DNA of 64,000 nucleotides, taken from positions 62,847 through 126,846 of the forward strand of contig CAKPOO010000003.1 in assembly GCA_934169925.1 (NCBI GenBank). The letters run 5' to 3'. The stretch's first letter is position 1, and each line of letters begins with the position of its first letter. Source of the DNA: an uncultured Clostridia bacterium (GTDB lineage Bacteria; Bacillota; Clostridia; TANB77; CAG-465). Under the pieces are notes generated by a model. That model was not told the origin of the DNA. It worked only from the letters and a program-made list of their open reading frames with translations, and searched no databases. Positions 19,109 through 47,022 of this stretch are shown here, piece after piece. A program made the translations under genes and the position numbers.

Positions 19109-20719
19109 ATGGCCAGTGTTTTAGGTATATTTGTAAGTAGTAATGTTATAAAATATGCAAAAATTTCAGAAGAAAGTGGTAAAAAACTTAAACTTGAAGA
19201 TTTTGGCGTAAGATTTGTTAAAGGAACTCAAAAGGAAACAATAAGAAGTATTATTGAAGAAACTAATTCTCAAAAGATTCCTATAGCAATCAATCCACAA
19301 GGCTCAAAATACATAAACTATGTAATGTTTGATCAGGCACAAGGTAGAAATGTAATGGCTGACGTTGCAAAAATGGAATTTGAAGCTTGGTGCGAAAAGA
19401 ATGCAAAATCTCCAGAAAAATATTCATATATTTATAAGGTTGCAGAAGTAAAAAATAATGAGAATAGATATAATGCAGTTTTGAATTTCATAGAAAAATC
19501 AAAGCTTGAAGAATGTTCTGATCTAGGGGGATACAAAGCTGATAATATTTTACCTGCTCAGTTTTCTATTAATAGATTAGTTCCTCAAGATGAGAAAAAT
19601 TATATGCTTGTAAATTTAGATGAAGCTTTATCTATTTGTGTTATTGTCGAAGGAAAGCTTTTAGAACTTAAATACTATGATATTGGTATGAAACAGATTT
19701 TAGATGACTTTTCTTTAAAACTTGGCTCTTATCAAAAAGCGTATGAAGCTTGCAAACAATTAAATGTTTATTCTGATGAAAGCACTAATAATAATCATGA
19801 ACTTGAACAAATTGCAGAACCAGTACTTCAAGAAGTGCTAAGAAATGTTGCAATCGTACTTAGTAAAAACAGAAATGAAATTGAAAAAGTATATATTACA
19901 GGTAATGGTATAGTATTTACAAATATGGATATTTTATTTAAAGAATATCTAAATATAAAATGTGAAATATTAAAACCAGATTTTATTCAAGATACAAGTG
20001 ATGTAAGAAATGTAGCTGAAATGCTAGAAACAGTTCAAGCTATGGCTTTAGCAGTTGAAACTCTTTCGCCTGTTAAAGAAAATTTGACTTTCTCACCAAA
20101 AGATGCAAAATCAAAATCAATGTTTGCATCTAGTGCTAAGCCTAAAAAATTACCAAAGAGAGAAAAAAGTAATGAAGATAGAAAAGAAAAAGAATTAAAT
20201 CTTCCAAGAAAAATTTATGATGCTTTGGTTTGTTCAAGTATTGTTATGATACTTGTCGTAATAGCATATAGCATTTTTGGTATAATGTATTCAAATAATA
20301 TAAATACAATGATTAAGAAAATTGACCAAAAAACAAATGAAATTACAACAGCAAAATCAGAAATTGATTCTGATATAACTTATATCTTAAATAATACTGC
20401 TAAATATAAAGTGGTTAATGATCAAGTAAATGACTACATTAATAACACAACAATATCACAAGTTAGATCAAAAAACATATATAATGTAGCAGCATTTATG
20501 CAAAGAATTGTAAAAATAATCCCTAACAATGTACAATTAAAATCAATTAAATCAGATGAAAATAAACATGTTACAATATCAGCTCAATCTGAAAGTTATT
20601 CATCTCTTGGATATTTCTTATCTGAATTGAAATTAAGTGGTACATTAAATAACATTGAGGTTAATACAGTTCAAAATGGTACAACAACAGTGGTTGAGAT
20701 AGGTGGTGATTTACCATAA
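19109..20719 (+). CDS. pilM: Type IV pilus assembly protein PilM (actin-like ATPase domain) fused to a PilN-like TM plus periplasmic region
   Basis: ORF 19046..20719. Probable ATG at 19109 after aaggag. The N-terminal about 340 aa has a PilM/FtsA-like architecture, followed by a TM (VCSSIVMILVVIAYSIFGI) and a coiled-coil periplasmic tail. Lies next to pilO, pilins, pilB, pilT and pilC. Confidence 0.65.
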   Translation: MASVLGIFVSSNVIKYAKISEESGKKLKLEDFGVRFVKGTQKETIRSIIEETNSQKIPIAINPQGSKYINYVMFDQAQGRNVMADVAKMEFEAWCEKNAKSPEKYSYIYKVAEVKNNENRYNAVLNFIEKSKLEECSDLGGYKADNILPAQFSINRLVPQDEKNYMLVNLDEALSICVIVEGKLLELKYYDIGMKQILDDFSLKLGSYQKAYEACKQLNVYSDESTNNNHELEQIAEPVLQEVLRNVAIVLSKNRNEIEKVYITGNGIVFTNMDILFKEYLNIKCEILKPDFIQDTSDVRNVAEMLETVQAMALAVETLSPVKENLTFSPKDAKSKSMFASSAKPKKLPKREKSNEDRKEKELNLPRKIYDALVCSSIVMILVVIAYSIFGIMYSNNINTMIKKIDQKTNEITTAKSEIDSDITYILNNTAKYKVVNDQVNDYINNTTISQVRSKNIYNVAAFMQRIVKIIPNNVQLKSIKSDENKHVTISAQSESYSSLGYFLSELKLSGTLNNIEVNTVQNGTTTVVEIGGDLP

Positions 20720-21414
20720 TGGTTGAAAATAAAAAAAGCTTAATTGCTATAATTGTTTTTGCAGTTTCTTTGATTTTATTAATAGTTGTTTTAAGTGGTG
20801 GTTTATCATCACTTGGTATAGTATCTCTAAAAGGAATAGGTGCTAAAAGAAATGATTTAGTAACTGCTGAAAACAATTACACATCTAAAAAAGCTTCATA
20901 TGATAGTTCTTTTGAAAATATTGAAACAGCAGAAAAAAATTATGATGCACAAAAGAAAAAATATGATTCTATTAGCGATGAAACAGTAAATGTTATAAAA
21001 AAATCAGCTAGTAATGAAAAATATAGTATCGAATATATGTGGATTAAACTTGGTAACTATGCAAAAAAAGATAATTTATCAATAGTAATTGTAGAACCAG
21101 GAAATGATTCAAGTGATACTTCTAGTAGTACAACTACTTCTACTACAACAAGTGATACAGTAAGTTTAGATAATACTACTACAAAAGAAACTACAGTGGC
21201 AACTGCAAAAAGTAGTGAAACTACACAAACTTCTAATGGTGAACCTTTAAAAATTAAAGTAGAAGGTAGTTATTTAAATATTGCAGATTTTATATTTGCA
21301 TTAGAAAGTGATAGTGAACTTAAATTTAGAATAGATAATATTTCAATGGAATATGTATCAGGTACTACAATATCTACTACATTTGAAGTTAAAAATGTAA
21401 CTATCTCTAAATAG
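20719..21414 (+). CDS. PilO-like pilus assembly protein (bitopic, coiled coil, Ser/Thr-rich linker)
   Basis: 231 aa with an N-terminal TM, a coiled-coil region and a poly-Ser/Thr stretch. Start codon overlaps the pilM/N stop. Confidence 0.5.
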   Translation: MVENKKSLIAIIVFAVSLILLIVVLSGGLSSLGIVSLKGIGAKRNDLVTAENNYTSKKASYDSSFENIETAEKNYDAQKKKYDSISDETVNVIKKSASNEKYSIEYMWIKLGNYAKKDNLSIVIVEPGNDSSDTSSSTTTSTTTSDTVSLDNTTTKETTVATAKSSETTQTSNGEPLKIKVEGSYLNIADFIFALESDSELKFRIDNISMEYVSGTTISTTFEVKNVTISK

Positions 21415-22267: not shown

Positions 22268-22326
22268 GTAAAAACATATATAATGTTTTTATATATATTT
22301 AGATTTTTTTAAGGGAGGTAAATTAT

Positions 22327-22896
22327 ATGAAAAATTCTAAAAAAGGTATTTCTTTAATAGTATTAGTTATAACAATCATCGTTATAATTATACTAGCTGC
22401 AGCAGTTATATTAACTATGCAAAAATCAAATCCTATTGCTGACGCAAGAACAGCAGTAGAAAAAGAAGATTACACAGAAGCACAAAATGCTTACAATATG
22501 TGGTTATCAAAAGTTATGGTAAAACAACTTGATACTGTAACATTCACTGGTTGGATTGGTGATATTTCAGATTTTAATGGTAAGACAAATGGTCATAGTT
22601 CATATTTAACTGATGGTAAAATAAATTCTATAACAACTAATGATTCATCATCAACTGCAACAACTCCACCAATAGTATCAACAGTAGGATTTGCAACTAG
22701 TTCACTTGCTAAATTAAATAGTGAAGTTATAACTAATTATGTTTCAACAGTAGATATTTCAAAATTAGGATTACCAGAACAAGTTAAAGCTATTTATGTA
22801 AAAGATAACAAAGTTATTGGATTATACAAAAATTCTACAGTTAGTTTCTTAAATCCTACTACTGATGTTATAACTGTTGATCAAACAATTGGTTAA
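22327..22896 (+). CDS. Type IV pilin-like protein, paralog 1 (class III-like signal KKG|ISLIV..., lacks Glu+5)
   Basis: 189 aa. Short basic leader ending in Gly followed by an approximately 25-residue hydrophobic helix. Residues 1-72 and the last 60 aa are nearly identical to the next ORF. Confidence 0.55.
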   Translation: MKNSKKGISLIVLVITIIVIIILAAAVILTMQKSNPIADARTAVEKEDYTEAQNAYNMWLSKVMVKQLDTVTFTGWIGDISDFNGKTNGHSSYLTDGKINSITTNDSSSTATTPPIVSTVGFATSSLAKLNSEVITNYVSTVDISKLGLPEQVKAIYVKDNKVIGLYKNSTVSFLNPTTDVITVDQTIG

Positions 22897-22919
22897 TTTA
22901 AAAATTATATAGGAGGAAA

Positions 22920-23513
22920 ATGATGAAAAATTCTAAAAAAGGTATTTCTTTAATAGTACTTGTTATAACAATCATCGTTATAATAATTCTTGCTGCAGCA
23001 GTTATATTAACTATGCAAAAATCAAATCCTATTGCTGATGCAAGAACTGCAGTAGAAAAAGAAGATTACACAGAAGCACAAAATGCTTACAATATGTGGT
23101 TATCAAAAGTTATGGTAAAACAACTTGATACTGTAGCTTTCAATGGTTGGATTGCAGCTGATGGTATTACAATGAGCACATATGCAGATACTGCAAAAGG
23201 TGGTGCAACTGGAGCTAATGGCAAAAGATTAAGTGATGGATATATTAAATCTCTAGATACAACTAAAGATGCAATTGATATAGACAAAACAATTACAGTT
23301 GGTTTTGCTACTAGTTCAAATGCTAGATTAAATAGTGATGTTGTAAATAATTTAGTAAGTAAAGTAACAATTTCTCAATTAGGATTACCAGAACAAGTTA
23401 ATGCTATTTATGTAGTTAATAATAAAGTTATTGGTTTATATAAAAATTCTACAATTAGTTTCTTAGATGTAGGTACTGATACAATAACTGTAGATCAAAC
23501 AACAACTAAATAA
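22920..23513 (+). CDS. Type IV pilin-like protein, paralog 2
   Basis: 197 aa. N-terminal 72 aa about 97% identical to paralog 1; conserved C-terminal block VGFATSS...LGLPEQV.AIYV..NKVIGLYKNST.SFL; divergent core. Confidence 0.55.
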   Translation: MMKNSKKGISLIVLVITIIVIIILAAAVILTMQKSNPIADARTAVEKEDYTEAQNAYNMWLSKVMVKQLDTVAFNGWIAADGITMSTYADTAKGGATGANGKRLSDGYIKSLDTTKDAIDIDKTITVGFATSSNARLNSDVVNNLVSKVTISQLGLPEQVNAIYVVNNKVIGLYKNSTISFLDVGTDTITVDQTTTK

Positions 23514-23582
23514 TTAAACATAGGTGAATTTTATGAAATAACTGTCGTTAGCAACATAAAATTTAAAGGATGAGTAATTTTT

Positions 23583-23631
23583 AAAGACATATACATATAT
23601 TCAATATGTGTATATGTCTTTAACCTTATAT
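23583..23631. promoter_or_regulatory. Near-perfect 22-bp-arm palindrome (hairpin or operator)
   Basis: aaagacatatacatatattcaatatgtgtatatgtcttt has one mismatch and no clear U-tract. It lies between the pilin genes and the pilD-remnant gene. Confidence 0.5.
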
Positions 23632-23723
23632 GTATTTGATATATTATATATTATGTATTTGTACATATTTTAGAATACATCTTTTTAAATGTAGTGTAAA
23701 ATGTGGATAAATAAGGAGGATAT

Positions 23724-24134
23724 ATGATTGTATTCTTAAATGTAATTTTAATTATTTGTATGTTTGTAATGGGATCTTTGTTTGGAAGTTTCTTTTCACT
23801 TGCAACATATAGATTACCTAGACATCAAGATATAATTGCTACTAGATCGTATTGTCCAAATTGTAAACATAGATTAAATTTTTTCGATTTAATACCTGTT
23901 TTTAGTTTTATATTTTTAGGTGATAAATGTAGGTATTGTAAACAAAAAATTAGTCCTAGATATTTTTTACTTGAAGTTTCTAATGGTTTACTGTTAGTTA
24001 TTTTATATCTAATTTTTGGATATACTATTAAACTTGCAATTATTTGGATTATTTATTCTTTTATTTTTGTTATTATTGGAGCTAAAATAATGGAAACAAA
24101 AATGTCAGATGAAGAGAAAAAGGAAGTGGAAAAG
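23724..24134 (+). CDS. Prepilin peptidase (PilD) N-terminal Zn-finger domain only; no A24 catalytic domain; in frame with the downstream pilin
   Basis: GSLFGSFFSLATYRLP...CPNCKHRL...LIPVFSFIFLGDKCRYCKQKISPRYFLLEV matches the PilD N-terminal domain, including its Cys tetrad. The region carrying the two catalytic Asp residues is missing. Confidence 0.6.
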
Positions 24135-24521
24135 ATGAAACTTTCAAAAAAATCTGGTGTGTTTATATCAGAACTTGTAATAGCTATAGTGTTATTTGCA
24201 ATTTTAATGATTTCAGTATTTACAATTTCAAGAAATTATACTAAAAATGCAACAGAAACAATTTTAAAATCTAATGCAAATGTAATTGCAGTAAAAAATC
24301 TTGAAATGTGTCTTGCAACGAAATATGATAAACTTGCATCATATACTTTACAAGAAAAGTTTCAAGATGTTACATATTCAGTAAATGTTAAAGTTGATTC
24401 TGTTTCAGATACTGATTTTTCAAAAAAGGATATAGTAAAAAAAGTTGAAGTAGAGGTAAGTTATATGCAAAATGGAGTAAAAAAGACACAAACTATTTCA
24501 ACACTAAAAGGTAAGGTGTAA
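24135..24521 (+). CDS. Prepilin-type minor pilin (MKLSKKSG|VFISELV..., canonical Glu+5)
   Basis: Internal ATG at 24135 within ORF 23724..24521. Class III signal with G|xxxxE and a hydrophobic helix. Confidence 0.55.
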   Translation: MKLSKKSGVFISELVIAIVLFAILMISVFTISRNYTKNATETILKSNANVIAVKNLEMCLATKYDKLASYTLQEKFQDVTYSVNVKVDSVSDTDFSKKDIVKKVEVEVSYMQNGVKKTQTISTLKGKV

Positions 24522-24524
24522 AAA

Positions 24525-24995
24525 ATGAAAAAAGGTATTACAATGCTTTCTTTAGTAATTTATGTTGTTTTATTTTTTGCATTTTCTGCAATTGCAATTT
24601 CTGTTTCTACGAATATGAATTTTAGGACATTATCAGAAAAAGGAATTATTTATTGCAATGAAGAGTTACAAAAATTACAATATAATTTACTAAATAGTGC
24701 TAAAAACAGTACATCTTGTGATATTATACAAAATACTTTTGTTTTTAGTAATGGTGATGAATATGTTTTTGATAGCAGTAATAAAAAAATATATAAAAAT
24801 GGAGGAACTCTTATTGATTCAATATCTAGTTGTTCTTCTATATCTGTATCAGAACTTAAGTCTACACCTGAAAATTTTGTATCAAATATAGACAAAGATG
24901 CAGAATATGTATGTTTAAATGTTGAATTTTCAAAATATAATCAAATTTTAAATACAGATTTATTTTTCAAGATAGGAGATGATACAGTTGAATAA
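24525..24995 (+). CDS. Minor pilin-like protein (MKKG|ITMLSLV..., no Glu+5)
   Basis: 156 aa with a pilin-like N-terminal helix and Cys residues in the C-terminal region. Confidence 0.4.
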   Translation: MKKGITMLSLVIYVVLFFAFSAIAISVSTNMNFRTLSEKGIIYCNEELQKLQYNLLNSAKNSTSCDIIQNTFVFSNGDEYVFDSSNKKIYKNGGTLIDSISSCSSISVSELKSTPENFVSNIDKDAEYVCLNVEFSKYNQILNTDLFFKIGDDTVE

Positions 24996-25209
24996 ATTAA
25001 AAAATATTTCAAAATTAAAAGGCTCTGGAATTTTGGTAGTAATTTTATCAGCTATTGCTTTTTCGATTTATTCAATGAGTGTTTTTTCAGAATCTAAACA
25101 TTTTAGTTTGATATTTAGTAAGTATGAAAAAAGTATATCAAATTATTATGAAAAAAATGTAAATGATGTAGATGGATTTTATGATTATATTTTAAAGTTA
25201 AATAAATAA
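24979..25209 (+). CDS. Small pilin-like protein
   Basis: 76 aa; LKGSGILVVILSAIAFSIYSMSVF is a pilin-like helix. Confidence 0.3.
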   Translation: MIQLNKLKNISKLKGSGILVVILSAIAFSIYSMSVFSESKHFSLIFSKYEKSISNYYEKNVNDVDGFYDYILKLNK

Positions 25210-25212
25210 TAG

Positions 25213-26868
25213 ATGGGAGTGTATGTTAAAATGTTTGAAAATGTTAGAGAAAAAAAGAGTCCAATAGGACTAGAGTTTATTAAACAAGGATTACTTACAG
25301 AATCTCAAGTTGATAGAGTTCTTGAATATCAAAGAGAACACAAAGAATTAAAATTTGCTGAAATTGTTGATGTTCTTGATATGTGTAATAAACAAAAATT
25401 ACTTGAAATTTTATCAGAAAAAATTAAAGTAACTATGGAACCACTAGAAGGAGATTTAGATATAAATCCTGTAGAATATTTACCAAGAGATATAATTATA
25501 AACTATAGAGTTATACCTTTTGATTTAGTTGGAAAAACTTTAAAAGTTGCTTTTTCTGATCCACTTGATGCAAACCGTGTAAGAGAAGTAGAACTTTTAC
25601 TTATGAACCAAGGTTACGATATGGAGATTTATGTTACATTATATACATCTATAATGAAACAAATTTCAAATTTAAAAAATGTTGGTACAAAATATGTTAA
25701 TAAAGAAGAAAAAGATGTAACTAAATTAATTGATAATATTATTTTAACAGGTATTGAAAAAAGAGCAAGTGATATTCACTTTGAACCAATGCAAAATAAA
25801 ATAAGAGTAAGATTTAGAATAGATGGTCAACTTGTAAATATAACTGAACTTCCAAAAGAAAGACAAGAACTTATCGCAGGAAGAATTAAGTCTATTTCTA
25901 ATATGTATCAAGAAATTCAAAATGACCAAGATGGTAGTATTGATACTTTTGATAACTATAGTATCCGTGTATCTAGCCAAAAAAATGTTAACGGAGAAAA
26001 GTTTGTTCTAAGACTTTTAAAGAAAAATACAGATGCAAAAGATTTATTTGAACTTGGATTTTTCAATGATAAAGAAACTATTGAAAAAGCATTTAACAAG
26101 AAAAATAGTATAATTCTTGTCTGTGCTCCTACTGGTGAAGGTAAAACTACAACTTTATATAGTGTTCTTGAATATTTAAATAGACCAGAAATAAACTTAA
26201 TTTCAATTGAAAACCCAGTTGAAAGAAGAATACCTGGTGTAAACCAAGTTGAAATTGGTGCAAATATAACATTTGCATCTGCATTAAGAACAGTTTTAAG
26301 ACAAGATCCAGATATAATTCTTGTTGGTGAAATACGTGATGAAGAAACTGCAAAAATAGCAATTGAAGCTGGTCAAACAGGTCACTTAGTTTTATCTACA
26401 ATACATACAATTGATGCTGTTGAAGCTATAACAAGACTTAGAAAAATGGGAATTTCTGATTATGATGTATCAGCAACACTAGTAACATCTATATCAGAAA
26501 GACTAGTAAGACGTTTATGTCCAAAATGTAAAAGACCTCATACTTTTACAGAAGATGAATTAAAATATATTCAAAGAGCAGAAAAAATTTCTGGAGTTAA
26601 TTTTGATTTAGAAAACGCACAACTTTTCGAACCAGTTGGTTGTGAATATTGTGATAATATTGGTTATTATGAAAGAATAGGTATATTTGAATTGTTATCT
26701 TTAGATGAGTATTTAAAAGATATGATTTCAAGTGGAAGATCAACTATTGATATTCGTAAATATGCAAAGGAAAATACAGGATATGAACCATTAGTTGTTG
26801 ACGGTATAAGAAAAGTATTAGAAGGAATTACTACAATAGATGAATTAAAAACAAAAATAACTCTATAA
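25213..26868 (+). CDS. pilB: Type IV pilus assembly ATPase PilB (GspE family)
   Basis: 551 aa. N-terminal GspE_N-like domain, Walker A CAPTGEGKTTTL, tetracysteine motif CPKC...CEYC, His box. An alternative ATG lies at 25231. Confidence 0.85.
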   Translation: MGVYVKMFENVREKKSPIGLEFIKQGLLTESQVDRVLEYQREHKELKFAEIVDVLDMCNKQKLLEILSEKIKVTMEPLEGDLDINPVEYLPRDIIINYRVIPFDLVGKTLKVAFSDPLDANRVREVELLLMNQGYDMEIYVTLYTSIMKQISNLKNVGTKYVNKEEKDVTKLIDNIILTGIEKRASDIHFEPMQNKIRVRFRIDGQLVNITELPKERQELIAGRIKSISNMYQEIQNDQDGSIDTFDNYSIRVSSQKNVNGEKFVLRLLKKNTDAKDLFELGFFNDKETIEKAFNKKNSIILVCAPTGEGKTTTLYSVLEYLNRPEINLISIENPVERRIPGVNQVEIGANITFASALRTVLRQDPDIILVGEIRDEETAKIAIEAGQTGHLVLSTIHTIDAVEAITRLRKMGISDYDVSATLVTSISERLVRRLCPKCKRPHTFTEDELKYIQRAEKISGVNFDLENAQLFEPVGCEYCDNIGYYERIGIFELLSLDEYLKDMISSGRSTIDIRKYAKENTGYEPLVVDGIRKVLEGITTIDELKTKITL

Positions 26869-26881
26869 TTTAGGAGGAAAA

Positions 26882-27979
26882 ATGGAAGCATTAGATTCAA
26901 TTTTGCAAAAAGCACTATCTTTAGGTGCTACAGATATTCATATTATTGTTGGTCAATTACCAATTTATAGAATAAGACGTGAACTTGTTTATGATCAATC
27001 AAAATTACCAATGTCAAAATCTACTATTTTAAAAATAATGGAGTACTTTTATGAAAATTATCCAACTTTAAAAGATGATTTTGAAGAAGATAAACAAGTT
27101 GACTTTACTTATTCATACATGGAAAATAGATTTAGAATTAATATATCTTTATCAAAAAGTAATCCTACTTTTTCTATTAGGGTTATACCTAATGGAAGTA
27201 TAAAAGTTAGAGATTTAGGATTAATTGATATAATAAATAAGATGAGAACTATTCAAAGTGGTTTAATCTTAGTTACAGGTAAAATTAATTCTGGAAAAAC
27301 TACAACTATGAATGCATTCATACAAGAAGTAAATAAATCTGATAAGAAAAAAATTGTTACACTAGAAGATCCAATAGAATATGAACACATATCTCAGGAA
27401 TCTGTTGTTATTCAAAAAGAAATAGGAAAAGAACTTGATGTAAAAGATTATAAATCAGGTCTTATAAACCTACTTAGAGAAGATGCTGATATTGCCGTAA
27501 TTGGAGAAATAAGAGATAGAGAAACAATGGACGTTGCTTTAGATCTTGCAGAATCAGGGGGACTTGTTGTAGGTACACTTCATACTCGTTCTTGTGGTGA
27601 AACATTAGAAAGAATTCTTTCTTTATATGATGGTAGTGAAAAAGCTGCTATAAAAAATACTTTGTCATCTGTTTTAAAAATGGTAATTTCTCAAAAATTA
27701 ATCATAAGTAAACAAAATGAATTACTTATGGTACCAGAAATAATGATGGTAAACACTGTATTAGCAGCTATAATACGACAAGAAAAGTTTAATATTGGTG
27801 ATATAGAAGATTCTATACATTCACAAAATGATATAGGATGTGTTAGTTTTGAACAATCTTTTACAGATCTTTATATAAGAAATTTAGTTGATTTAAAGAC
27901 TATAAAAGAAAATGTTGATCCAGAAAGATTTAAAATTATTAAAAATCTAATAATAAGTTCTGGTGTATCACTTGAGTAA
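26882..27979 (+). CDS. pilT: Twitching-motility / pilus retraction ATPase PilT
   Basis: 365 aa. LVTGKINSGKTTT (Walker A), GEIRDRETM (Asp box), VVGTLHT; length typical of PilT. Confidence 0.8.
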   Translation: MEALDSILQKALSLGATDIHIIVGQLPIYRIRRELVYDQSKLPMSKSTILKIMEYFYENYPTLKDDFEEDKQVDFTYSYMENRFRINISLSKSNPTFSIRVIPNGSIKVRDLGLIDIINKMRTIQSGLILVTGKINSGKTTTMNAFIQEVNKSDKKKIVTLEDPIEYEHISQESVVIQKEIGKELDVKDYKSGLINLLREDADIAVIGEIRDRETMDVALDLAESGGLVVGTLHTRSCGETLERILSLYDGSEKAAIKNTLSSVLKMVISQKLIISKQNELLMVPEIMMVNTVLAAIIRQEKFNIGDIEDSIHSQNDIGCVSFEQSFTDLYIRNLVDLKTIKENVDPERFKIIKNLIISSGVSLE

Positions 27980-28025
27980 TTTTTTTATTTATAATATAAT
28001 GAATTTATGTGGAAGGAGATAAAAG

Positions 28026-29381
28026 ATGCCAAGTTATAAATATAGAGTAATATATGAAGATGGAAAAATTGGTAGAGGCAGAATACTTGCTAAAAGTAAG
28101 GCTCATGCTATTGAAAGTTTAAAAAATGATAATGTTCAACCTGTATCTATTCAAAGACAGAATGATCCACATAAGAGATTTAAAAAAATTGATTATAAAA
28201 GATTAGTAAGATCTCAAATTATGAAAAATCAGAATTCGAGAGAAAAACATACTCAAAAGGAAAAGATTGATTGGAAAAACTTAACTTTAAGAGACTTAAA
28301 AAAATTAGAATTTCATCCTTTTAGACATGTTACTAGTAAAGATATAATTTCTTTTGTTAATAACTTTTATATATTAAAAAAGGCAAAATTTAATAATGTT
28401 CAAGCTTTAGAAGCTTTATATAATGGTGTAACAAATCCTGCTTTCAAATCTATAGTTGAAGATTTATTAATAGGAGTTCAAGATGGTGAAAAAATATATA
28501 AGATAATGATGAGTTATCCTAAAGTTTTCCCACCAATATTTGTTAATTTCATAAAAGTTGGTGAAGAGTCTGGTACACTTGATAGTGCACTTATATATGC
28601 AAGAGATTATGTAGAAAGTTCTATGGCTTTAAAAAAGAAAATAAGAGCGTCTGTTATTCCAAGAGTTTTACAATTCTTTGGTATAATTATCATGATGTGC
28701 GTAGCTGTTGTTATTGGTGTACCGATGTTACAAGATGTTTATGACATGTTTGATTCATCTGCTGAAATACCAGCTGCTACAATGGGACTTTTAAATGCAG
28801 TTAACTGGTTAATTGCAAATTGGTATTGGGTAGTACTAGGAATTGGTGTTGTAGTATTTGGTTTCTTAGCTATTATAAGTACGACAAGAGGCAGATATAA
28901 TTGGGATAAGTTCTTATTTAGGTGTCCAGTGCTTGGAAATGTTATAAGGAATATAACAATTGAGAAGTTTTTTCTTGCAATGCTTCTTAACTTAAAAAAT
29001 GGTTTAAGATTACAAGAAAGTTTAGAGATATCAAAAACTGTTACAAACAATCTATTTTTCTTATCAACAGTAGAAATTGCAAAAGCAAATGCTATAACAG
29101 GTGAATCTTGGATTACACCTTTTGTGGATAATAAAATATTTACACCTATGATGTCACAAATGGTATCAGTAGGTATGAAAACAGATATTGTTGAAATGAT
29201 AGAGAAAGTAAATGTATATATAAGACAAGAAATTGATGAATCAGTTGCAAAATTTGTTAAAGTTTTACCTGATATTACATATCTTTTTGTTGGTATAGCA
29301 TTGATTGCCTTTGTTATAACAATTGTTGTTCCAATAATTGGAGTATACATGGGAAGTTTCATAACAATCGATAGTTATTAA
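28026..29381 (+). CDS. pilC: Type IV pilus inner-membrane platform protein PilC (GspF family)
   Basis: 451 aa with two T2SF-type repeats separated by TM helices and a typical N-terminal cytoplasmic domain. Confidence 0.75.
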   Translation: MPSYKYRVIYEDGKIGRGRILAKSKAHAIESLKNDNVQPVSIQRQNDPHKRFKKIDYKRLVRSQIMKNQNSREKHTQKEKIDWKNLTLRDLKKLEFHPFRHVTSKDIISFVNNFYILKKAKFNNVQALEALYNGVTNPAFKSIVEDLLIGVQDGEKIYKIMMSYPKVFPPIFVNFIKVGEESGTLDSALIYARDYVESSMALKKKIRASVIPRVLQFFGIIIMMCVAVVIGVPMLQDVYDMFDSSAEIPAATMGLLNAVNWLIANWYWVVLGIGVVVFGFLAIISTTRGRYNWDKFLFRCPVLGNVIRNITIEKFFLAMLLNLKNGLRLQESLEISKTVTNNLFFLSTVEIAKANAITGESWITPFVDNKIFTPMMSQMVSVGMKTDIVEMIEKVNVYIRQEIDESVAKFVKVLPDITYLFVGIALIAFVITIVVPIIGVYMGSFITIDSY

Positions 29382-31020: not shown

Positions 31021-31824
31021 ATGAAAAAATTAAGTAACTTTGATTTAAAAGTATTTGCAATTATTTTTATGATTATAGATCATATTGGATACTTTTTTAG
31101 TTTTGCTTTAAGTAGTGATGTATATATAACTTTTAGAATAATTGGAAGATTGGCTATGCCAATCTTTGCTTATTTAGTAGCAGAGGGAATCTATTATACA
31201 AAAGATATAAAAAAGTATATAGCAAGACTTGGAATTTTTGCTATAGTAACTCAAGCATTACTTATTTTAATAGATTATATACAAGTAAAAATTGGAAATA
31301 TAAAACTTGCAAATATATCAAGTAGTGCAAATATATTATTTTCCTTTATGTTTGCTGCTATAGTCATTATGCTTATTTGTAAGTTTATAGAAAAAGCAAA
31401 AATAACATTTTTTGTAAAAAATAAAAATTTAAAGTTAAAAGATATATTAAGAAATGTAGTAGTTATGTTTTTTGAATTTTTAGCTGTTATATTTATTTTT
31501 GTATTATTTAAAATTTTAAAATTTGATTATGGAATAAATGCTTTTTTACTTGTTGTTTTAATATCAATTATAAATAAAATATATAAAATAAGAAATATAG
31601 AAAGAATAGGAAATGTAAGTTATTATATACTTGTATTTTTAAGTTTGTTTTTACTTTGTTTTCCTCTTAAAAATTATTCATATATAAGACTATTTTCTAT
31701 TGTATTTATTTTATTTTATAGCGGAAAAAAAGGAAAATATAGCAAATATTTATTTTATATTGCATATTTGTTACAATATGTAATCATTTCAATTAGTTCT
31801 ATAATTGTATTCATGCATTTTTAA
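31021..31824 (+). CDS. TraX-family membrane protein (F-pilin acetylase family)
   Basis: 267 aa. N-terminal LKVFAIIFMIIDHIGYFF matches the TraX family signature; polytopic. Confidence 0.65.
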   Translation: MKKLSNFDLKVFAIIFMIIDHIGYFFSFALSSDVYITFRIIGRLAMPIFAYLVAEGIYYTKDIKKYIARLGIFAIVTQALLILIDYIQVKIGNIKLANISSSANILFSFMFAAIVIMLICKFIEKAKITFFVKNKNLKLKDILRNVVVMFFEFLAVIFIFVLFKILKFDYGINAFLLVVLISIINKIYKIRNIERIGNVSYYILVFLSLFLLCFPLKNYSYIRLFSIVFILFYSGKKGKYSKYLFYIAYLLQYVIISISSIIVFMHF

Positions 31825-31948
31825 TATATTGTTTACATAAACACTTTACAAGAAAAAATTATTGTGGTATAATTCGAATATCACAGTAATTTTTTTTTAC
31901 AAAAAACATAAGATTAATTATATAATGTCCAAAGGAGGAAATTTTATA

Positions 31949-32623
31949 ATGGAAAATTATAATGAAAACAATTTAATAAAAATTGCAGGTAAAGTGGTAG
32001 AAGAACCTGTATTTAGTCATGAATTATATGAGGAAAAGTTTTATATACTTTATATTGAAACAAGAAGACTTAGTCAATATTCAGACAAATTACCAGTAAT
32101 AATATCAGAAAGATTATATGATATATCAAATATAAAAAAGGATGATATTTTTTATATTGAAGGTCAATTTAGATCATATAACAAATTAAATGAAGGAAAA
32201 AGTAAATTAATTTTATCTATATTTGCAAGAGAATTTGTAAAAAAAGATGATGAAGAAATTTTAACTTTAAATGATGCTAATTTTGTAGGGTTTATATGCA
32301 AGCAACCTATATATAGAAAAACTCCACTTGGAAGAGAAATTGCAGATGTTTTAGTTGCAGTTAATCGTTCATATAAAAAATCAGATTATATACCATGTAT
32401 ATTATGGGGAAGAAATGCTAAATTTTGTGAAACATTACCTGTTGGTTCAAAAGTAAAAATTAGTGGAAGAATCCAATCAAGAAAATATGAAAAGAAAAAT
32501 CAAGATGGTACTGTTATACCAAAAGTTGCATATGAAATATCTGTTTCAAAATTTTCTATTGCAAAAGATGAAAATGTAGAAGATGTTAAAGTTGATGATA
32601 ATAATAATGATAATGTAAAATAG
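31949..32623 (+). CDS. SSB-like protein with two tandem OB folds
   Basis: ORF 31862..32623. ATG at 31949 follows aaggagga and an extended -10 tggtataat. The C-terminal half (VAVNRSYKKSDYIPCILWGRNAKFCE...ISGRIQSRKYEKKNQDG...AYEISVSKFSI) resembles SSB core motifs, and the N-terminal half repeats the pattern. Confidence 0.55.
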   Translation: MENYNENNLIKIAGKVVEEPVFSHELYEEKFYILYIETRRLSQYSDKLPVIISERLYDISNIKKDDIFYIEGQFRSYNKLNEGKSKLILSIFAREFVKKDDEEILTLNDANFVGFICKQPIYRKTPLGREIADVLVAVNRSYKKSDYIPCILWGRNAKFCETLPVGSKVKISGRIQSRKYEKKNQDGTVIPKVAYEISVSKFSIAKDENVEDVKVDDNNNDNVK

Positions 32624-33378: not shown

Positions 33379-33795
33379 ATGAAAAGTTCAAAAAAATTCT
33401 TATTAAGAATAATACCAGTTTTTGTTGTTTTAAGCATAATATTAACTTCAGTAACAGGAGTTTTTGCATTTGGTAATTTTAATGATATTTCTGAGATTAA
33501 TAAAGGTGCAGGAACTACTGGTGATGGTGTTACATCTGTTAATGGTGCTGTAAATAGAGTATGGAAAACTGTTGTAACTGTTTTACAAATATTAGCAGTT
33601 GCTGCAATAGTTATAGCTGGTGTAAGATATATGTTTGCTTCAGCTGATACAAAAGCTGATATAAAAGGACAAACAGTTGGACTTGTTGTTGGTGCTGTAC
33701 TTGTTTTCGGTGCATCATTTATCGTTCAATTTATTATTAATGTTACTTCAGATGTTACAGGGGTAAAAGAATCACAACAAACACAACAACAATAA
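33379..33795 (+). CDS. VirB2/TrbC-like T4SS pilin paralog 1
   Basis: 138 aa. Signal peptide followed by two hydrophobic helices (TVVTVLQILAVAAIVIAGVRYMF / VGLVVGAVLVFGASFIVQFII) separated by a short charged loop, which is the VirB2 topology. Confidence 0.55.
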   Translation: MKSSKKFLLRIIPVFVVLSIILTSVTGVFAFGNFNDISEINKGAGTTGDGVTSVNGAVNRVWKTVVTVLQILAVAAIVIAGVRYMFASADTKADIKGQTVGLVVGAVLVFGASFIVQFIINVTSDVTGVKESQQTQQQ

Positions 33796-33844
33796 TAATG
33801 TTTTTATAAAATCAGGCTTGACCTGATTTTTTTATTAAAGATAG

Positions 33845-34234
33845 GTGAGATTTATGAATAAATTTAAAATCTTTGCAATAGTCATACTTGTTATTACTTT
33901 ATTTTTAACATTATATCCAGTGGTGTATGCAGATTTTGGAGAAGGTTTTGATCCTAGTAAGGTTGCATATGATAAAGTGTTAGAGGATGATACAGGTGTT
34001 GGAAAAATTACAAGCCCTATAAACAAAATTTTTAATACAATAGTTAGAATTTTACAAATTTTGTCTATTGCAGGAATAATATTAACAGGTCTTAGATATA
34101 TGCTTACAACTGATACTTTAAAAAAAGCAGATTTTAAAGAATCTACTATGTATTTGATAATAGGTATGGTTATAGTATTTTGTGCAAGTACAGTAATTGA
34201 ATTTATTGTAAAAGCTGCAGATGAAGTAATATAG
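33845..34234 (+). CDS. VirB2/TrbC-like T4SS pilin paralog 2
   Basis: 129 aa with the same architecture; the conserved motif IL.ILQI(L/V)S(I/V)A...I.TGL(R/K)YM is shared with paralogs 1 and 3. Confidence 0.55.
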   Translation: MRFMNKFKIFAIVILVITLFLTLYPVVYADFGEGFDPSKVAYDKVLEDDTGVGKITSPINKIFNTIVRILQILSIAGIILTGLRYMLTTDTLKKADFKESTMYLIIGMVIVFCASTVIEFIVKAADEVI

Positions 34235-34254
34235 TAAAAGGAGGATTAAGATAC

Positions 34255-34629
34255 ATGAATAATAGTTACAAAATATTATTTAAAATAATGGCTATTGTAT
34301 TTATAGGTATCATTATTGCAAGTAATGTTAGCATTGTTTTTGCAGATGATCTTTCTGATTTTAACAGTACAGATTTTAATGCTGGAGAAGAAAGCGTAGA
34401 AAAGATTGATACTGCCGTTCTTAAAATTTGGAAAACAGTTGTTACAATTTTACAAATTGTTTCTGTTGCAGCTGTTATTATTACTGGACTTAAGTATATG
34501 TTTGCATCATCAGAGAAAAAAGCTGACATAAAATCTATGTCACTTGGATTTATTGTTGGGGCAGTTATTGTCTTTGGATCTTCGTTTGTTGTATCCTTTG
34601 TTATAAAAGTTGTACAAGATACAATATAA
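34255..34629 (+). CDS. VirB2/TrbC-like T4SS pilin paralog 3
   Basis: 124 aa, same architecture. Confidence 0.55.
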   Translation: MNNSYKILFKIMAIVFIGIIIASNVSIVFADDLSDFNSTDFNAGEESVEKIDTAVLKIWKTVVTILQIVSVAAVIITGLKYMFASSEKKADIKSMSLGFIVGAVIVFGSSFVVSFVIKVVQDTI

Positions 34630-34731
34630 TAAGCTTAAATATTAATAAAAAATCTACTTTTTCATTAAAAAAAGTAGATTTTTTTTTACTTTATTGATAT
34701 AATTTGTATGTGAAAATAGAGAGGTTATTTT

Positions 34732-35700
34732 ATGAACAAAAAGATATTTAGTATAGTTATTATGAGCATAGTATTTTTTGCTATGATAGGTGGCAATGTA
34801 TTTGCATGGGTAGAGTCTGATGACGTATCAAGTTTAAGGAGTGATGAAATAGCAGAAAATATAAAAAGTAGTTTTAATAGTAAAAATATAGATGATTTTT
34901 TTTGCTATGTAAATTATGGATATAGTGATTTATCATCTGAGCAAAAAGAAGAAGTTGATCCATTGATAGAATATTCAGTAAAAAATTATAAAAGTCAGCT
35001 ACTAAGTGCTACAAATAAATTAGATCCTACTGAAGATCCAATAAGTTCACAACTTGATAGTGTTTGGAATAAATTTGAAGGTGGAAAGAGCTTTACTTCT
35101 AATGCGTCATCTGGTTCAAAGTCAGACGATGATAAGAAAAAAGCTGCTGATGATTGGTTTGGTCAAGCTACTTCTTGGTGGGGAGATGCTAAAAAAAGTG
35201 GATTTACAATTCCACAAGAAGCTCAGGATGTAATAGATCAATTTACCGATATGATTAACATTATAGGTACAACTTTAATATTTGTTGCAACAATTGTTCT
35301 TGGAATTAAATTTATATTTGGAAGTATTGATGGAAAATCTGAAGCAAAGGAAGATATGATTACTTTACTTGTAGCTTGTGTATTTTTCTTTGGATGGAAT
35401 GGAATAATGGGGATTCTTTTAAATAATGCTCATGATGACATTGCAATAGTTGAAGGTGAAACTAGTTACGTAACTGTAATTTCTAAAATGTTAACTGTAT
35501 TTAGAACAATTTCAAATTGTTTACTTGTTGTTGGTGTTATTTATGTAGGTATAAAATTTATATTTGCTGGTGCACAGGGAAAAGCAGATTTAAAAGCAAA
35601 ATCTGGTTTTTTTATAATTGGTATTATACTTGCATTTTGTACAGTAAATGTTCTTACTTTCTTATCAGATGTTATAAATCAAGTATTAACAAAAACATAA
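34732..35700 (+). CDS. Secreted/membrane protein with an N-terminal soluble domain and two tandem C-terminal VirB2-like hairpin modules
   Basis: 322 aa with a signal peptide. The C-terminus carries two copies of the ...IKFIFG(S/A)..GK..(A/L)K... TM-hairpin motif found in the three small pilins. Confidence 0.45.
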   Translation: MNKKIFSIVIMSIVFFAMIGGNVFAWVESDDVSSLRSDEIAENIKSSFNSKNIDDFFCYVNYGYSDLSSEQKEEVDPLIEYSVKNYKSQLLSATNKLDPTEDPISSQLDSVWNKFEGGKSFTSNASSGSKSDDDKKKAADDWFGQATSWWGDAKKSGFTIPQEAQDVIDQFTDMINIIGTTLIFVATIVLGIKFIFGSIDGKSEAKEDMITLLVACVFFFGWNGIMGILLNNAHDDIAIVEGETSYVTVISKMLTVFRTISNCLLVVGVIYVGIKFIFAGAQGKADLKAKSGFFIIGIILAFCTVNVLTFLSDVINQVLTKT

Positions 35701-35727
35701 GGAATATAAGAATTAGGGGGTTAATAT

Positions 35728-36129
35728 ATGGGAAAATCTTATTATGTTCCACGTAGTGTTAAAGGTGAGACAAGAATACTTATTATATTTACAGTTAAGT
35801 CATTTATTTTTACTCTTGCTTTTGGACTTATAGGTGGTGGAATTTGGGCTTTAGGCTCAAATCTATTTGGAATGGGAATGTTTCCAGGAATTGCAGTTAC
35901 AATTTTATTTGGAGGATTTGGTTATTTAATTGGTACAGCTAAAATACCTGATTCACCAATAATGGGACCATTTCAAAAAGCTGGTGGTGAATATGTTAGT
36001 GAAATAATTAAAAGATTTATCACTTTTAAATCAAGAAAAAAAATATATTTATATAATTACAATAGAGAAAATATAATTAATAATAAAAATAATAAAAATA
36101 GTAGTAATAACAAAGGAGGAAAAAAATAA
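35728..36129 (+). CDS. PrgI-family (VirB3-like) small membrane protein
   Basis: 133 aa. N-terminal YYVPRSVKGETRILIIFTVKSF fits the PrgI-family N-terminal pattern; two TM helices; sits just upstream of the VirB4 gene. Confidence 0.55.
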   Translation: MGKSYYVPRSVKGETRILIIFTVKSFIFTLAFGLIGGGIWALGSNLFGMGMFPGIAVTILFGGFGYLIGTAKIPDSPIMGPFQKAGGEYVSEIIKRFITFKSRKKIYLYNYNRENIINNKNNKNSSNNKGGKK

Positions 36130-37514: not shown

Positions 37515-37537
37515 TTTAACTTTGGGGGATTAGATAT

Positions 37538-39550: not shown

Positions 39551-39578
39551 AAATTAAATTTAAAATGGATGAGGATTT

Positions 39579-41192: not shown

Positions 41193-41229
41193 ACTTTAAA
41201 TAATTACTAAATTATATGGATGGTTAATT

Positions 41230-42879: not shown

Positions 42880-42905
42880 AAATTTAAATTTGAAGAAAGG
42901 ATATT

Positions 42906-44540: not shown

Positions 44541-44578
44541 AATAGGTAATAATATTAAATTTACAAAAGGAAAGAATT

Positions 44579-46039: not shown

Positions 46040-46057
46040 TATAATAAGGAGGATTTT

Positions 46058-47011: not shown

Positions 47012-47022
47012 GTGGTGTTTAT

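What the first reader, a model, noticed from the sequence alone, without database searches (positions are those of the whole stretch)
22327..23513. Tandem major-pilin paralogs with identical termini and a diversified central segment
The two adjacent pilin-like genes are about 97% identical over the first 72 residues and share a conserved C-terminal block (VGFATSS...LGLPEQV.AIYV..NKVIGLYKNST.SFL...TD.ITVDQT). They differ completely in a central segment of about 50 residues. That is the pattern expected for surface-exposed variable loops (antigenic or functional variation) maintained by duplication or gene conversion.
Basis: seen in the sequence. Interest (0 to 1): 0.5.

Follow-up and report, generated by a model that had tools for sequence, protein, structure and literature searches.

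The report
Two tandem, mosaic, recombining pilin genes
Two neighbouring genes in the type IV pilus operon of an uncultured, spore-forming human-gut Clostridia bacterium encode pilin-like proteins with the same 71-residue stem but different heads; strains swap the head segments by recombination, and the protein family is undescribed and lacks the glutamate normally considered essential in bacterial pilins.

Summary
Genes at 22327-22896 and 22923-23513 (+ strand, 26 nt apart, each with its own ribosome-binding site) are 96% identical over the first 230 nt, about 40% over a central 145-column segment with indels, and 78% over the last 216 columns.

They lie in a complete type IV pilus operon (PilMN, PilO-like, PilB, PilT, PilC) downstream of spoIIIA.

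Six strain haplotypes from human-gut metagenomes all carry exactly two genes here. Window and L001 differ at under 0.5% of flanking positions but at 22% between 22564 and 23575. Triplet tests show recombinant alleles, including exchange between the two gene positions (Fisher p down to 5e-12), with a recurrent breakpoint in the conserved KLNSEV block. Synonymous markers specific to each position show the duplication predates strain divergence, and the shared stem is held mainly by purifying selection (dN/dS about 0.05).

The mosaic and gene-conversion reading is supported. "Major pilin" remains inferred. There is no Pfam, NCBIfam or PDB fold match. The N-terminus G|ISLIV carries Val, never Glu, at +5 in 239 relatives. 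No A24 peptidase domain is in the window.

The closest analogue is Streptococcus sanguinis PilE1/PilE2. I rate it a new variant of a known kind, of moderate interest.

The parts
22313..22318 (+). Ribosome-binding site GGGAGG, 8 nt upstream of the gene 1 start codon
   Evidence: Read directly from the sequence
22327..22896 (+). Pilin-like gene 1 (slot 1), 189 aa. Leader MKNSKKG, then ISLIVLVITIIVIIILAAAVIL
   Evidence: ORF list and sequence. Exact protein is present in public gut metagenome assemblies
22327..22558 (+). Constant 5' module of gene 1. Encodes the leader plus the predicted N-terminal helix (residues 7-66) and the first strand
   Evidence: 96% nt identity to 22923-23154. Helix prediction. 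Amino-acid entropy about 0 across 12 alleles
22559..22686 (+). Hypervariable module V1 of gene 1 (residues ~78-120, Ser/Thr-rich)
   Evidence: About 40% nt identity to gene 2, with indels. Highest entropy among alleles. pLDDT is low here
22687..22896 (+). C-terminal module of gene 1 (GFATSS...LGLPEQV...NKVIGLYKNST...TVDQT). Semi-conserved, with a second variable patch at residues ~133-146
   Evidence: 78-81% nt identity to gene 2. This module is exchanged between slots and strains; the breakpoint is at alignment nt ~436
22911..22916 (+). Ribosome-binding site AGGAGG of gene 2, inside the 26-nt intergenic spacer. No terminator lies between the two genes
   Evidence: Sequence and terminator scan
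22923..23513 (+). Pilin-like gene 2 (slot 2), 196 aa. The ORF opens at 22920, but ATG 22923 is the likely start
   Evidence: Protein is identical to P0007
23155..23300 (+). Hypervariable module V1 of gene 2 (residues ~78-126)
22564..23575 (+). Tract that differs between otherwise near-identical strains: 281 differences in 1274 nt against L001
   Evidence: Flanks differ at 27/6000 positions upstream and 12/5371 downstream
23581..23623 (+). 20-bp hairpin just 3' of the variable tract. Likely a partial terminator or transcript-stabilising stem after the pilin genes
   Evidence: Folding of 23505-23730 gives z = -5.85. No strong T-run follows, so termination is inferred only
19046..21414 (+). PilM-PilN fusion (19046-20719; gene callers in other strains use a later start) and PilO-like protein (20719-21414)
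   Evidence: PF05137 and TIGR01175 hits. Synteny is conserved
23724..24521 (+). Fusion protein. A24_N_bact domain (the N-terminal domain of prepilin peptidase, without the peptidase domain), then a linker, then a canonical prepilin (KKSG|VFISE). It is the only Glu5 pilin in the operon
   Evidence: The two parts are separate genes in L011
24525..25209 (+). Two small minor-pilin-like genes (24525-24995 and 24979-25209)
   Evidence: N-termini MKKG|ITMLS and KLKG|SGILV. No family hits
25213..29381 (+). PilB-type assembly ATPase with MshEN domain (25213-26868), PilT-type ATPase (26882-27979) and PilC platform protein (28026-29381)
   Evidence: PF00437, PF05157 and PF00482 hits

Best explanation
The two genes are co-transcribed paralogous structural subunits of a Clostridia type IV pilus. 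They belong to a large, undescribed pilin family.

Each protein has three modules:
1. A constant stem: the leader MKNSKKG plus about 65 residues of predicted alpha-helix. This would be the membrane-anchor, assembly and filament-core part, and it is kept unchanged by strong purifying selection.
2. A hypervariable loop module, V1.
3. A semi-conserved beta-sheet module containing a second variable patch.

The conserved blocks are the 5' 230 nt, the KLNSEV / LGLPEQV blocks, and the region at the downstream hairpin. They serve as crossover sites for homologous recombination. Head modules are therefore swapped between the two gene positions of one genome (gene conversion) and between strains (allelic replacement).

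Each strain thus makes two different heads on the same stem, and the population holds many combinations. The most likely outcome is a pilus with a mixed, strain-specific surface, as in Streptococcus sanguinis PilE1/PilE2. The variation is probably driven by phage, host antibody or ligand specificity.

Shown here: the mosaic anatomy, the operon context, the population hotspot, the recombinant alleles, and the selection contrast between modules.

Inferred: cleavage after Gly7, co-expression, incorporation of both proteins into one filament, surface exposure of V1, and the selective agent.
For: Anatomy:
- Nucleotide identity runs 96%, about 40% and 78% along the genes.
- The two genes are 26 nt apart. 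Each has its own ribosome-binding site, with no terminator between them and a 20-bp hairpin after the second.

Context:
- PilMN, PilO-like, PilB (with MshEN), PilT and PilC are all in one operon.
- The same gene order holds in 6 same-species contigs and in other species.

Pilin-like features:
- Leader ending in Gly followed by a 22-residue hydrophobic tract.
- hhalign places the N-terminus in register with a canonical pilin N-terminus: 43% identity over 30 columns, E = 1.2e-3.
- The AF2 model (pLDDT 79) has a helix at residues 7-66 and then a beta-sheet.

Population evidence:
- There are always two genes at this position, in six haplotypes.
- Window against L001: 0.2-0.45% divergence in about 11 kb of flanks, but 22% between 22564 and 23575.

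Recombination:
- L022 slot 2 has the centre of L001 slot 2 (97%) but the 3' end of window slot 1 (95%), Fisher p = 4.9e-12.
- L002 slot 1 is L001 slot 1 joined to window slot 1, p = 1.1e-10.
- The same breakpoint, at alignment nt ~436, recurs.
- L029 pairs a window-type slot 1 with an L001-type slot 2.

Selection:
- Stem: dN/dS 0.00-0.15.
- V1: dN/dS about 1, reaching 2.1 for window against L001.
- C module: dN/dS 0.4-2.3.

Family-wide pattern:
- Relatives carry 2-6 tandem copies with the same conserved-variable-conserved layout.
- Paralogues cluster by genome in L006 and L010.
Against: - No Pfam or NCBIfam pilin model matches. The canonical Glu5 pilin in the neighbouring fusion also fails to match, so this negative result is weak.
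- Position +5 is Val. Glu5 is held to be essential for assembly of bacterial major pilins (PMC10628169).
- No Peptidase_A24 domain was found in any of the ~59 larger window ORFs scanned.
- The 5' modules are not freshly homogenised. Slot-specific synonymous markers persist across strains.
- Expression, cleavage and filament incorporation are untested.
- dN/dS in V1 rests on an unreliable alignment close to saturation.
Confidence: 0.55

Rival explanations
1. The tandem proteins are not the bulk subunit. They are tip-located or low-abundance adhesin pilins: alternative 'heads' carried on a filament built from another, Glu5-bearing pilin. That pilin could be the one released from the A24_N fusion, or a major pilin encoded elsewhere in the genome.
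For: - In characterised systems the pilins lacking Glu5 sit at the apex (PilA of S. sanguinis, GspK-type; PMC10628169).
- +5 is never Glu in this family.
- The same N-terminus carries BspA leucine-rich-repeat or GLUG adhesin-type modules in relatives of 300-690 aa, like modular minor pilins.
- The only Glu5 prepilin in the operon is the fusion product, with E150 invariant.
Against: - A major subunit translated 1:1 as a fusion with a membrane protein would be unusual.
- The tandem genes have strong ribosome-binding sites and a downstream hairpin, typical of highly expressed pilin genes.
- There are 2-6 copies per operon across species.
- No other pilin candidate lies in 64 kb.
Confidence: 0.22
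2. An old duplication followed by simple divergence. The stem is identical only because of purifying selection, the centre is free to drift, and gene conversion plays no real part.
For: - Slot-specific synonymous differences (nt 37, 39, 63, 66, 69) are shared by most strains.
- Stem dS is 0.16-0.28, not zero, and dN/dS is about 0.05.
Against: - Segment-wise incongruence and significant triplet breakpoints, including slot 2 alleles carrying slot 1 5' and 3' ends.
- Chimeric 5' marker patterns in the slot 2 genes of L002, L018 and L022.
- dS differs between segments of the same gene pair: 0.16, 0.69 and 0.35.
- Paralogues cluster by genome in L006 and L010.
- The divergence step between window and L001 is abrupt.
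Confidence: 0.1
3. They are not pilus subunits at all. They are signal-anchored (uncleaved) variable surface proteins that merely sit in the pilus operon.
For: No Glu5, no pilin family hit, no pilin fold match, and no A24 peptidase domain in the window.
Against: - Gly at -1 and the following 12 residues are essentially invariant in 239 relatives, and the leader is most often 5-6 residues long. That is the pattern of a processing site.
- Position in the pilus operon is fixed across species.
- In-register alignment with a canonical pilin N-terminus.
- A helix of about 60 residues followed by a beta-sheet.
Confidence: 0.13

Closest known systems
Streptococcus sanguinis PilE1/PilE2: two major pilins forming a heteropolymeric type IV pilus
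   Same: - Two adjacent, similar pilin genes in the pilus locus of a monoderm (single-membrane) bacterium.
- The N-terminal helix sequence is identical in both proteins.
- Differences are concentrated in head loops.
- Overall identity is comparable: 78% there (PMC6497953) and 70% here.
- In S. sanguinis the two proteins are incorporated stochastically at about 4:3, and immune evasion is the proposed role (PMC6497953, PMC10628169).
   Different: - S. sanguinis pilins have the canonical F1/E5 N-terminus (FTLVELIVV...) and a canonical pilin fold. Here the N-terminus is ISLIVLVIT, with Val at +5 and no detectable fold match.
- The central segment here is unalignable rather than differing by an 8-residue loop.
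- Here there is direct population evidence of module swapping.
- Co-assembly is untested here.
Neisseria pilE/pilS antigenic variation
   Same: A conserved N-terminal pilin region with variable C-terminal modules, reshuffled by homologous recombination at short conserved blocks.
   Different: - Neisseria uses one expressed gene plus many promoterless, 5'-truncated silent copies, with high-frequency unidirectional conversion within a clone.
- Here both copies are complete and carry ribosome-binding sites. No further copies exist in 64 kb.
- The exchange is seen only between strains, on population timescales.
Allelic major-pilin groups maintained in populations (Pseudomonas aeruginosa pilA groups, Dichelobacter nodosus fimA serogroups). 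This comparison is from my own knowledge, not tested here
   Same: A pilin locus that is far more divergent than its flanks, with a conserved 5' end and divergent 3' end, exchanged by recombination.
   Different: Those are single-gene loci (with accessory genes) in diderm (double-membrane) bacteria with canonical Glu5 pilins. Here it is a fixed two-gene array in a gut Clostridia lineage.
Clostridial type IV pili (C. difficile PilA1, C. perfringens)
   Same: Operon make-up: a PilM-PilN fusion, PilO, PilB with a c-di-GMP-type MshEN domain, PilT and PilC (review PMC6916266).
   Different: - Those major pilins have canonical class III signal peptides.
- Their operons encode full prepilin peptidases.
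- Here only the A24 N-terminal domain is present, and it is fused to a pilin.

Membership tests
Type IV pilin (class III signal peptide, IPR012902 / PF07963 / TIGR02532) | Short hydrophilic leader ending in Gly | tested here: met
   MKNSKKG. Gly is invariant in 239 relatives, and the leader is mostly 5-6 residues long. Definition taken from PMC6916266
Type IV pilin (class III signal peptide, IPR012902 / PF07963 / TIGR02532) | About 21 mostly hydrophobic residues after the Gly | tested here: met
   ISLIVLVITIIVIIILAAAVIL.
Type IV pilin (class III signal peptide, IPR012902 / PF07963 / TIGR02532) | Glu at position +5 of the mature protein | tested here: not met
   Val in both genes. Among 239 relatives: Val 222, Thr 12, other hydrophobic or Ser 5, Glu 0
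Type IV pilin (class III signal peptide, IPR012902 / PF07963 / TIGR02532) | Match to curated pilin N-terminal models | tested here: not met
   No Pfam or NCBIfam hit at E <= 0.1. This is weakly informative, because the canonical Glu5 prepilin in 23724-24521 is also missed
Type IV pilin (class III signal peptide, IPR012902 / PF07963 / TIGR02532) | Lollipop fold: an N-terminal helix of about 50 residues packed on an antiparallel beta-sheet | tested here: inconclusive
Type IV pilin (class III signal peptide, IPR012902 / PF07963 / TIGR02532) | Encoded with dedicated assembly machinery (ATPase, platform protein, PilM/N/O) | tested here: met
   Synteny is conserved in other strains and species
Type IV pilin (class III signal peptide, IPR012902 / PF07963 / TIGR02532) | Processing by an A24 prepilin peptidase and N-methylation | not testable with these tools
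   Only the A24 N-terminal domain (PF06750) is in the window. PF01478 was not found in any of the ~59 larger ORFs scanned. The rest of the genome is not available
Heteropolymeric pilus with two major pilins (S. sanguinis type) | Two adjacent paralogous pilin genes with identical alpha1 sequence | tested here: met
   71 identical N-terminal residues. The genes are 26 nt apart
Heteropolymeric pilus with two major pilins (S. sanguinis type) | Both proteins abundant and co-polymerised in one filament | not testable with these tools
   Needs filament purification and mass spectrometry
Silent-cassette antigenic variation (Neisseria pilE/pilS type) | Promoterless, 5'-truncated donor copies | tested here: not met
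   Both copies are full-length with a start codon and ribosome-binding site. No further copies in the window
Invertible-segment pilin switching (Moraxella tfpQ/tfpI type) | Inverted alternative gene segments flanked by inverted repeats, with a recombinase | tested here: not met
   Both genes are on the same strand. The only strong inverted repeat is the hairpin at 23581-23623

The most novel reading that the evidence does not exclude
The tandem genes belong to a very large pilin family. The family has at least 7,065 clusters at 50% identity with E <= 1e-3, and 1,719 with E <= 1e-10. It has no Pfam or NCBIfam model, and no paper in the searched library mentions the motif.

Its invariant N-terminus G|ISLIVLVITIIV carries Val instead of the 'essential' Glu5. 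These proteins may nevertheless be the bulk subunits of retractile type IV pili in uncultured gut Clostridia. That would imply a Glu5-independent assembly chemistry.

Two further features would fit this reading. The clade has a conserved protein in which the prepilin-peptidase N-terminal domain, without the peptidase domain, is fused to the operon's only Glu5 pilin. Arrays of 2-6 paralogues would give combinatorially mosaic filament surfaces.
Probability: 0.3. Interest if true: 0.75.

Novelty: new variant of a known kind. Interest (0 to 1): 0.5.

Why it matters
Type IV pili mediate adhesion, motility and DNA uptake, and they are phage receptors. Almost nothing is known about them in uncultured gut Clostridia.

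This locus is a clean natural example of modular surface variation. It has a fixed two-gene array, a constant stem, and head modules exchanged between paralogues and between strains whose surrounding genome is almost identical. That points to strong diversifying pressure in the human gut, from phage, IgA or ligand choice.

It also exposes a large unannotated pilin family that breaks the Glu5 rule. If these proteins are confirmed as filament subunits, the role of Glu5 in assembly could be tested by natural contrast. Annotation would also need correcting: the neighbouring proteins named 'prepilin peptidase' lack the peptidase domain.

Tried and rejected
- Pfam and NCBIfam scans of both proteins gave no meaningful hits.
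- A PDB sequence-profile search found nothing significant.
- The AlphaFold-database library was not available.
- Extra or silent pilin cassettes in the window: none found.
- An invertible element or flanking inverted repeats: none convincing.
- The metagenome-contig scan yielded no further same-species alleles, only 3 distant loci.
- The genome-contig scan did not contain this species. Its nearest named relatives are Clostridium sp. CAG:921 and CAG:1219 and uncultured Clostridia MAGs.
- A literature search for the N-terminal motif strings returned only false matches.
- Cluster look-up gave no source names or accessions for the pilins.
- A mobile-element or prophage origin is rejected. The operon sits in conserved chromosomal synteny after spoIIIA in all strains and related species.

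Full report
**1. What is in the sequence**

Two ORFs lie head to tail on the + strand: 22327-22896 (189 aa) and 22920-23513. The second most likely starts at ATG 22923 (196 aa). That start lies 6 nt from AGGAGG (22911-22916) and reproduces the MKNSKK N-terminus of gene 1. Gene 1 has GGGAGG 8 nt upstream of its start.

The nucleotide alignment is sharply mosaic:
- Columns 1-230: 220/230 identical.
- Columns 231-375: 58/145 identical, with 18 gap columns.
- Columns 376-591: 168/216 identical.

The first 71 residues are identical, with 7 synonymous differences. BLASTP gives 70% identity overall, E = 2e-72. The repeat finder picks out the same two blocks, D4 and D6, and finds no third copy in 64 kb. 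One correction applies: only the N-terminus is nearly identical.

**2. Context**

The window has 25% G+C and is chromosomal DNA of a spore-forming Clostridia bacterium. It carries RNase R, formate-tetrahydrofolate ligase, the spoIIIAA-AH operon and DnaE.

The two genes sit inside a type IV pilus operon, in this order:
- PilM-PilN fusion (19046-20719)
- PilO-like protein (20719-21414)
- two small proteins
- the two pilin-like genes
- a 265-aa A24_N_bact fusion protein (23724-24521)
- two small pilin-like genes
- PilB with an MshEN domain
- PilT
- PilC

No terminator-like site separates the two genes. A 20-bp hairpin follows the second gene at 23581-23623.

**3. Are they pilins?**

In favour:
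- A 7-residue basic leader ends in Gly and is followed by 22 hydrophobic residues.
KG|FTLIELMIVVAIIGILAA aligns with KG|ISLIVLVITIIVIIILAA at 43% identity, E = 1.2e-3, low probability.
- The AlphaFold model (pLDDT 79) has a helix at 7-33 and 36-66 with a break at Ser-Asn-Pro. It continues with a strand, a low-confidence loop at 79-120, and a sheet of four further strands. This is lollipop-like topology.
- The position in the pilus operon is fixed in every relative examined.

Against:
- No Pfam or NCBIfam model matches. The neighbouring canonical Glu5 prepilin is also missed, so this is weak evidence.
- A PDB profile search finds nothing significant.
- Position +5 is Val.

In 239 retrieved relatives the first twelve mature residues are ISLIVLVITIIV almost without exception. 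Position +5 is Val (222), Thr (12) or another uncharged residue (5), and never Glu.

A profile search of 1.84 billion cluster representatives finds 7,065 members at E <= 1e-3 and 1,719 at E <= 1e-10. Most share only the N-terminal 60-100 residues, and lengths in the retrieved set range from 48 to 674 aa. Some relatives carry BspA-type leucine-rich repeats or GLUG motifs behind the same N-terminus.

No Peptidase_A24 domain is present in any of the ~59 larger window ORFs scanned.

I therefore treat "type IV pilin-like structural subunit" as well supported by context and topology. I treat "major pilin" as an inference.

**4. Population evidence**

The exact proteins occur in human-gut metagenome assemblies. 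I recovered the locus from other strains of the same species: L001, L002, L003/L004 (the window's own type), L018-L020, L021/L022-L025 and L029.

Every strain has exactly two genes at this position. There are six combinations of alleles.

Window against L001:
- 27 differences in 6,000 nt upstream.
- 12 differences in 5,371 nt downstream.
- 281 differences in 1,274 nt between 22564 and 23575.

The divergent tract starts right after the constant 5' module of gene 1 and ends just before the hairpin. The neighbouring pilus genes, including the Glu5 fusion pilin and the minor pilin-like genes, stay at 97-100% identity.

**5. Recombination against selection**

The 5' 216 nt carry synonymous markers specific to each gene position (nt 37, 39, 63, 66, 69), and most strains share them. 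The duplication is therefore older than the strains. Three slot 2 alleles (L002, L018, L022) have chimeric marker patterns.

Nei-Gojobori estimates for the window pair:

| Module | dS | dN |
|---|---|---|
| Stem | 0.16 | 0.012 |
| V1 | 0.69 | 0.80 |
| C module | 0.35 | 0.22 |

The V1 alignment is unreliable and close to saturation. Across paralogue pairs, stem dN/dS is 0.00-0.15.

Segment-wise identity matrices are incongruent. L022 slot 2 shares V1 with L001 slot 2 (97%) but shares its C module with window slot 1 (95% against 88%).

Triplet breakpoint tests:
- L022 slot 2: p = 4.9e-12
- L002 slot 1: p = 1.1e-10
- L002 slot 2: p about 1e-7

A recurrent breakpoint lies at alignment nt ~436, in the conserved KLNSEV block. 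L029 pairs a window-type slot 1 with an L001-type slot 2.

In the sister species L006 and L010 (flanks 82-85% identical), the 'b' paralogues are 89-95% identical within a genome in their first 210 nt. Between genomes they are 82-87% identical. This is the signature of concerted evolution or repeated local expansion.

Conclusion: purifying selection keeps the stem protein constant. Homologous recombination at conserved blocks moves head modules between the two positions and between strains.

**6. Mechanism proposed**

The constant stem is the assembly and core module. V1 (residues ~78-120) and a second patch (~133-146) show the highest entropy among alleles, and V1 falls in the low-confidence loop of the model; I take them to be exposed surface, which remains an inference. 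Both genes are probably co-transcribed and co-assembled, giving a mixed surface.

This is what has been shown for S. sanguinis PilE1/PilE2. Those pilins are 78% identical with an identical alpha1, occur at about 4:3, are incorporated stochastically, and are proposed to aid immune evasion (PMC6497953, PMC10628169).

The selective agent here (phage, IgA or ligand) is inferred, not shown.

The chief rival is that these Glu5-less proteins are tip or accessory adhesin pilins on a filament made of another subunit. In known systems, subunits without Glu5 cap the filament (PMC10628169).

**7. Novelty and score**

Tandem, variable pilin paralogues and recombining pilin loci are known phenomena. New here:
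- The family itself: large, unannotated, Val at +5.
- The clade-wide A24_N-pilin fusion that accompanies it.
- The clear two-slot module shuffling in a gut commensal.

I rate it a new variant of a known kind, interest 0.5.

Noticed in passing
window 23724-24521: A 265-aa protein with an unusual architecture. It has an A24_N_bact domain (PF06750, four Cys) without any Peptidase_A24 domain, then a Lys/Glu-rich linker, then a canonical prepilin site KKSG|VFISE and a pilin-like head of about 115 aa. The full-length architecture is conserved in the 120 listed clusters (of 547 hits at E <= 1e-5; 49-64% identity), with K143, G145 and E150 invariant. NCBI names some members 'prepilin peptidase', which looks like a misannotation. 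It is the only Glu5 pilin in the operon.
   Followed up: partly
L011 9119-9670 and 9667-10077: In this related species the A24_N protein (183 aa) and the pilin-like protein (136 aa) are separate, overlapping genes. This supports reading the window protein as a gene fusion.
   Followed up: partly
window 22345-22392 and 22941-22988; relatives L005-L017: The pilin family has an essentially invariant mature N-terminus, ISLIVLVITIIV, with Val or Thr and never Glu at +5. It has 7,065 cluster representatives at E <= 1e-3, no Pfam or NCBIfam model, and no mention of the motif in the searched papers.
   Followed up: yes
L012 4898-6364, L014 7980-9863, L015 8001-12007: The same N-terminus is fused to large BspA-type leucine-rich-repeat or GLUG-motif modules (305-688 aa), often as tandem genes. 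These look like modular adhesin pilins.
   Followed up: partly
L006 7998-11162 and L010 7995-10101: Related species carry 6 and 4 tandem pilin genes of two subtypes at the same operon position. Each gene has the conserved-variable-conserved layout, and paralogues cluster by genome.
   Followed up: partly
L029 3597-4173 (slot 2 gene): A run of seven A instead of six in codons 4-6 shifts the reading frame of the second pilin gene in this assembly; the contig naming suggests a long-read assembly. This is either a homopolymer sequencing error or slippage-based inactivation.
   Followed up: no
window 23581-23623: A nearly perfect 20-bp hairpin (AT-rich, no clear T-run) lies directly after the variable tract. 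It is conserved at 99-100% between strains and marks the 3' recombination boundary.
   Followed up: partly
window 33379-52554: A type IV secretion or conjugation-like cluster. It contains three small tandem TrbC/VirB2-like genes (33379, 33845, 34255) plus a 322-aa protein with the same domain (34732). It also has a TraG/VirB4-like ATPase (37538-39550), four tandem ~490-550-aa paralogues (39579-46039, repeat families D1-D5) and a 1,339-aa M23-peptidase protein. This is another set of tandem diversified paralogues in the same window.
   Followed up: no
window 13860-14336 and 14329-14748: spoIIIAA is split into two overlapping ORFs that match the two halves of the Pfam model (positions 6-157 and 160-291). 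This is either a frameshift or a genuine split.
   Followed up: no
window 31021-32623: A TraX-family protein and a 253-aa protein with a C-terminal single-strand-binding domain lie between the pilus operon and the secretion-like cluster.
   Followed up: no
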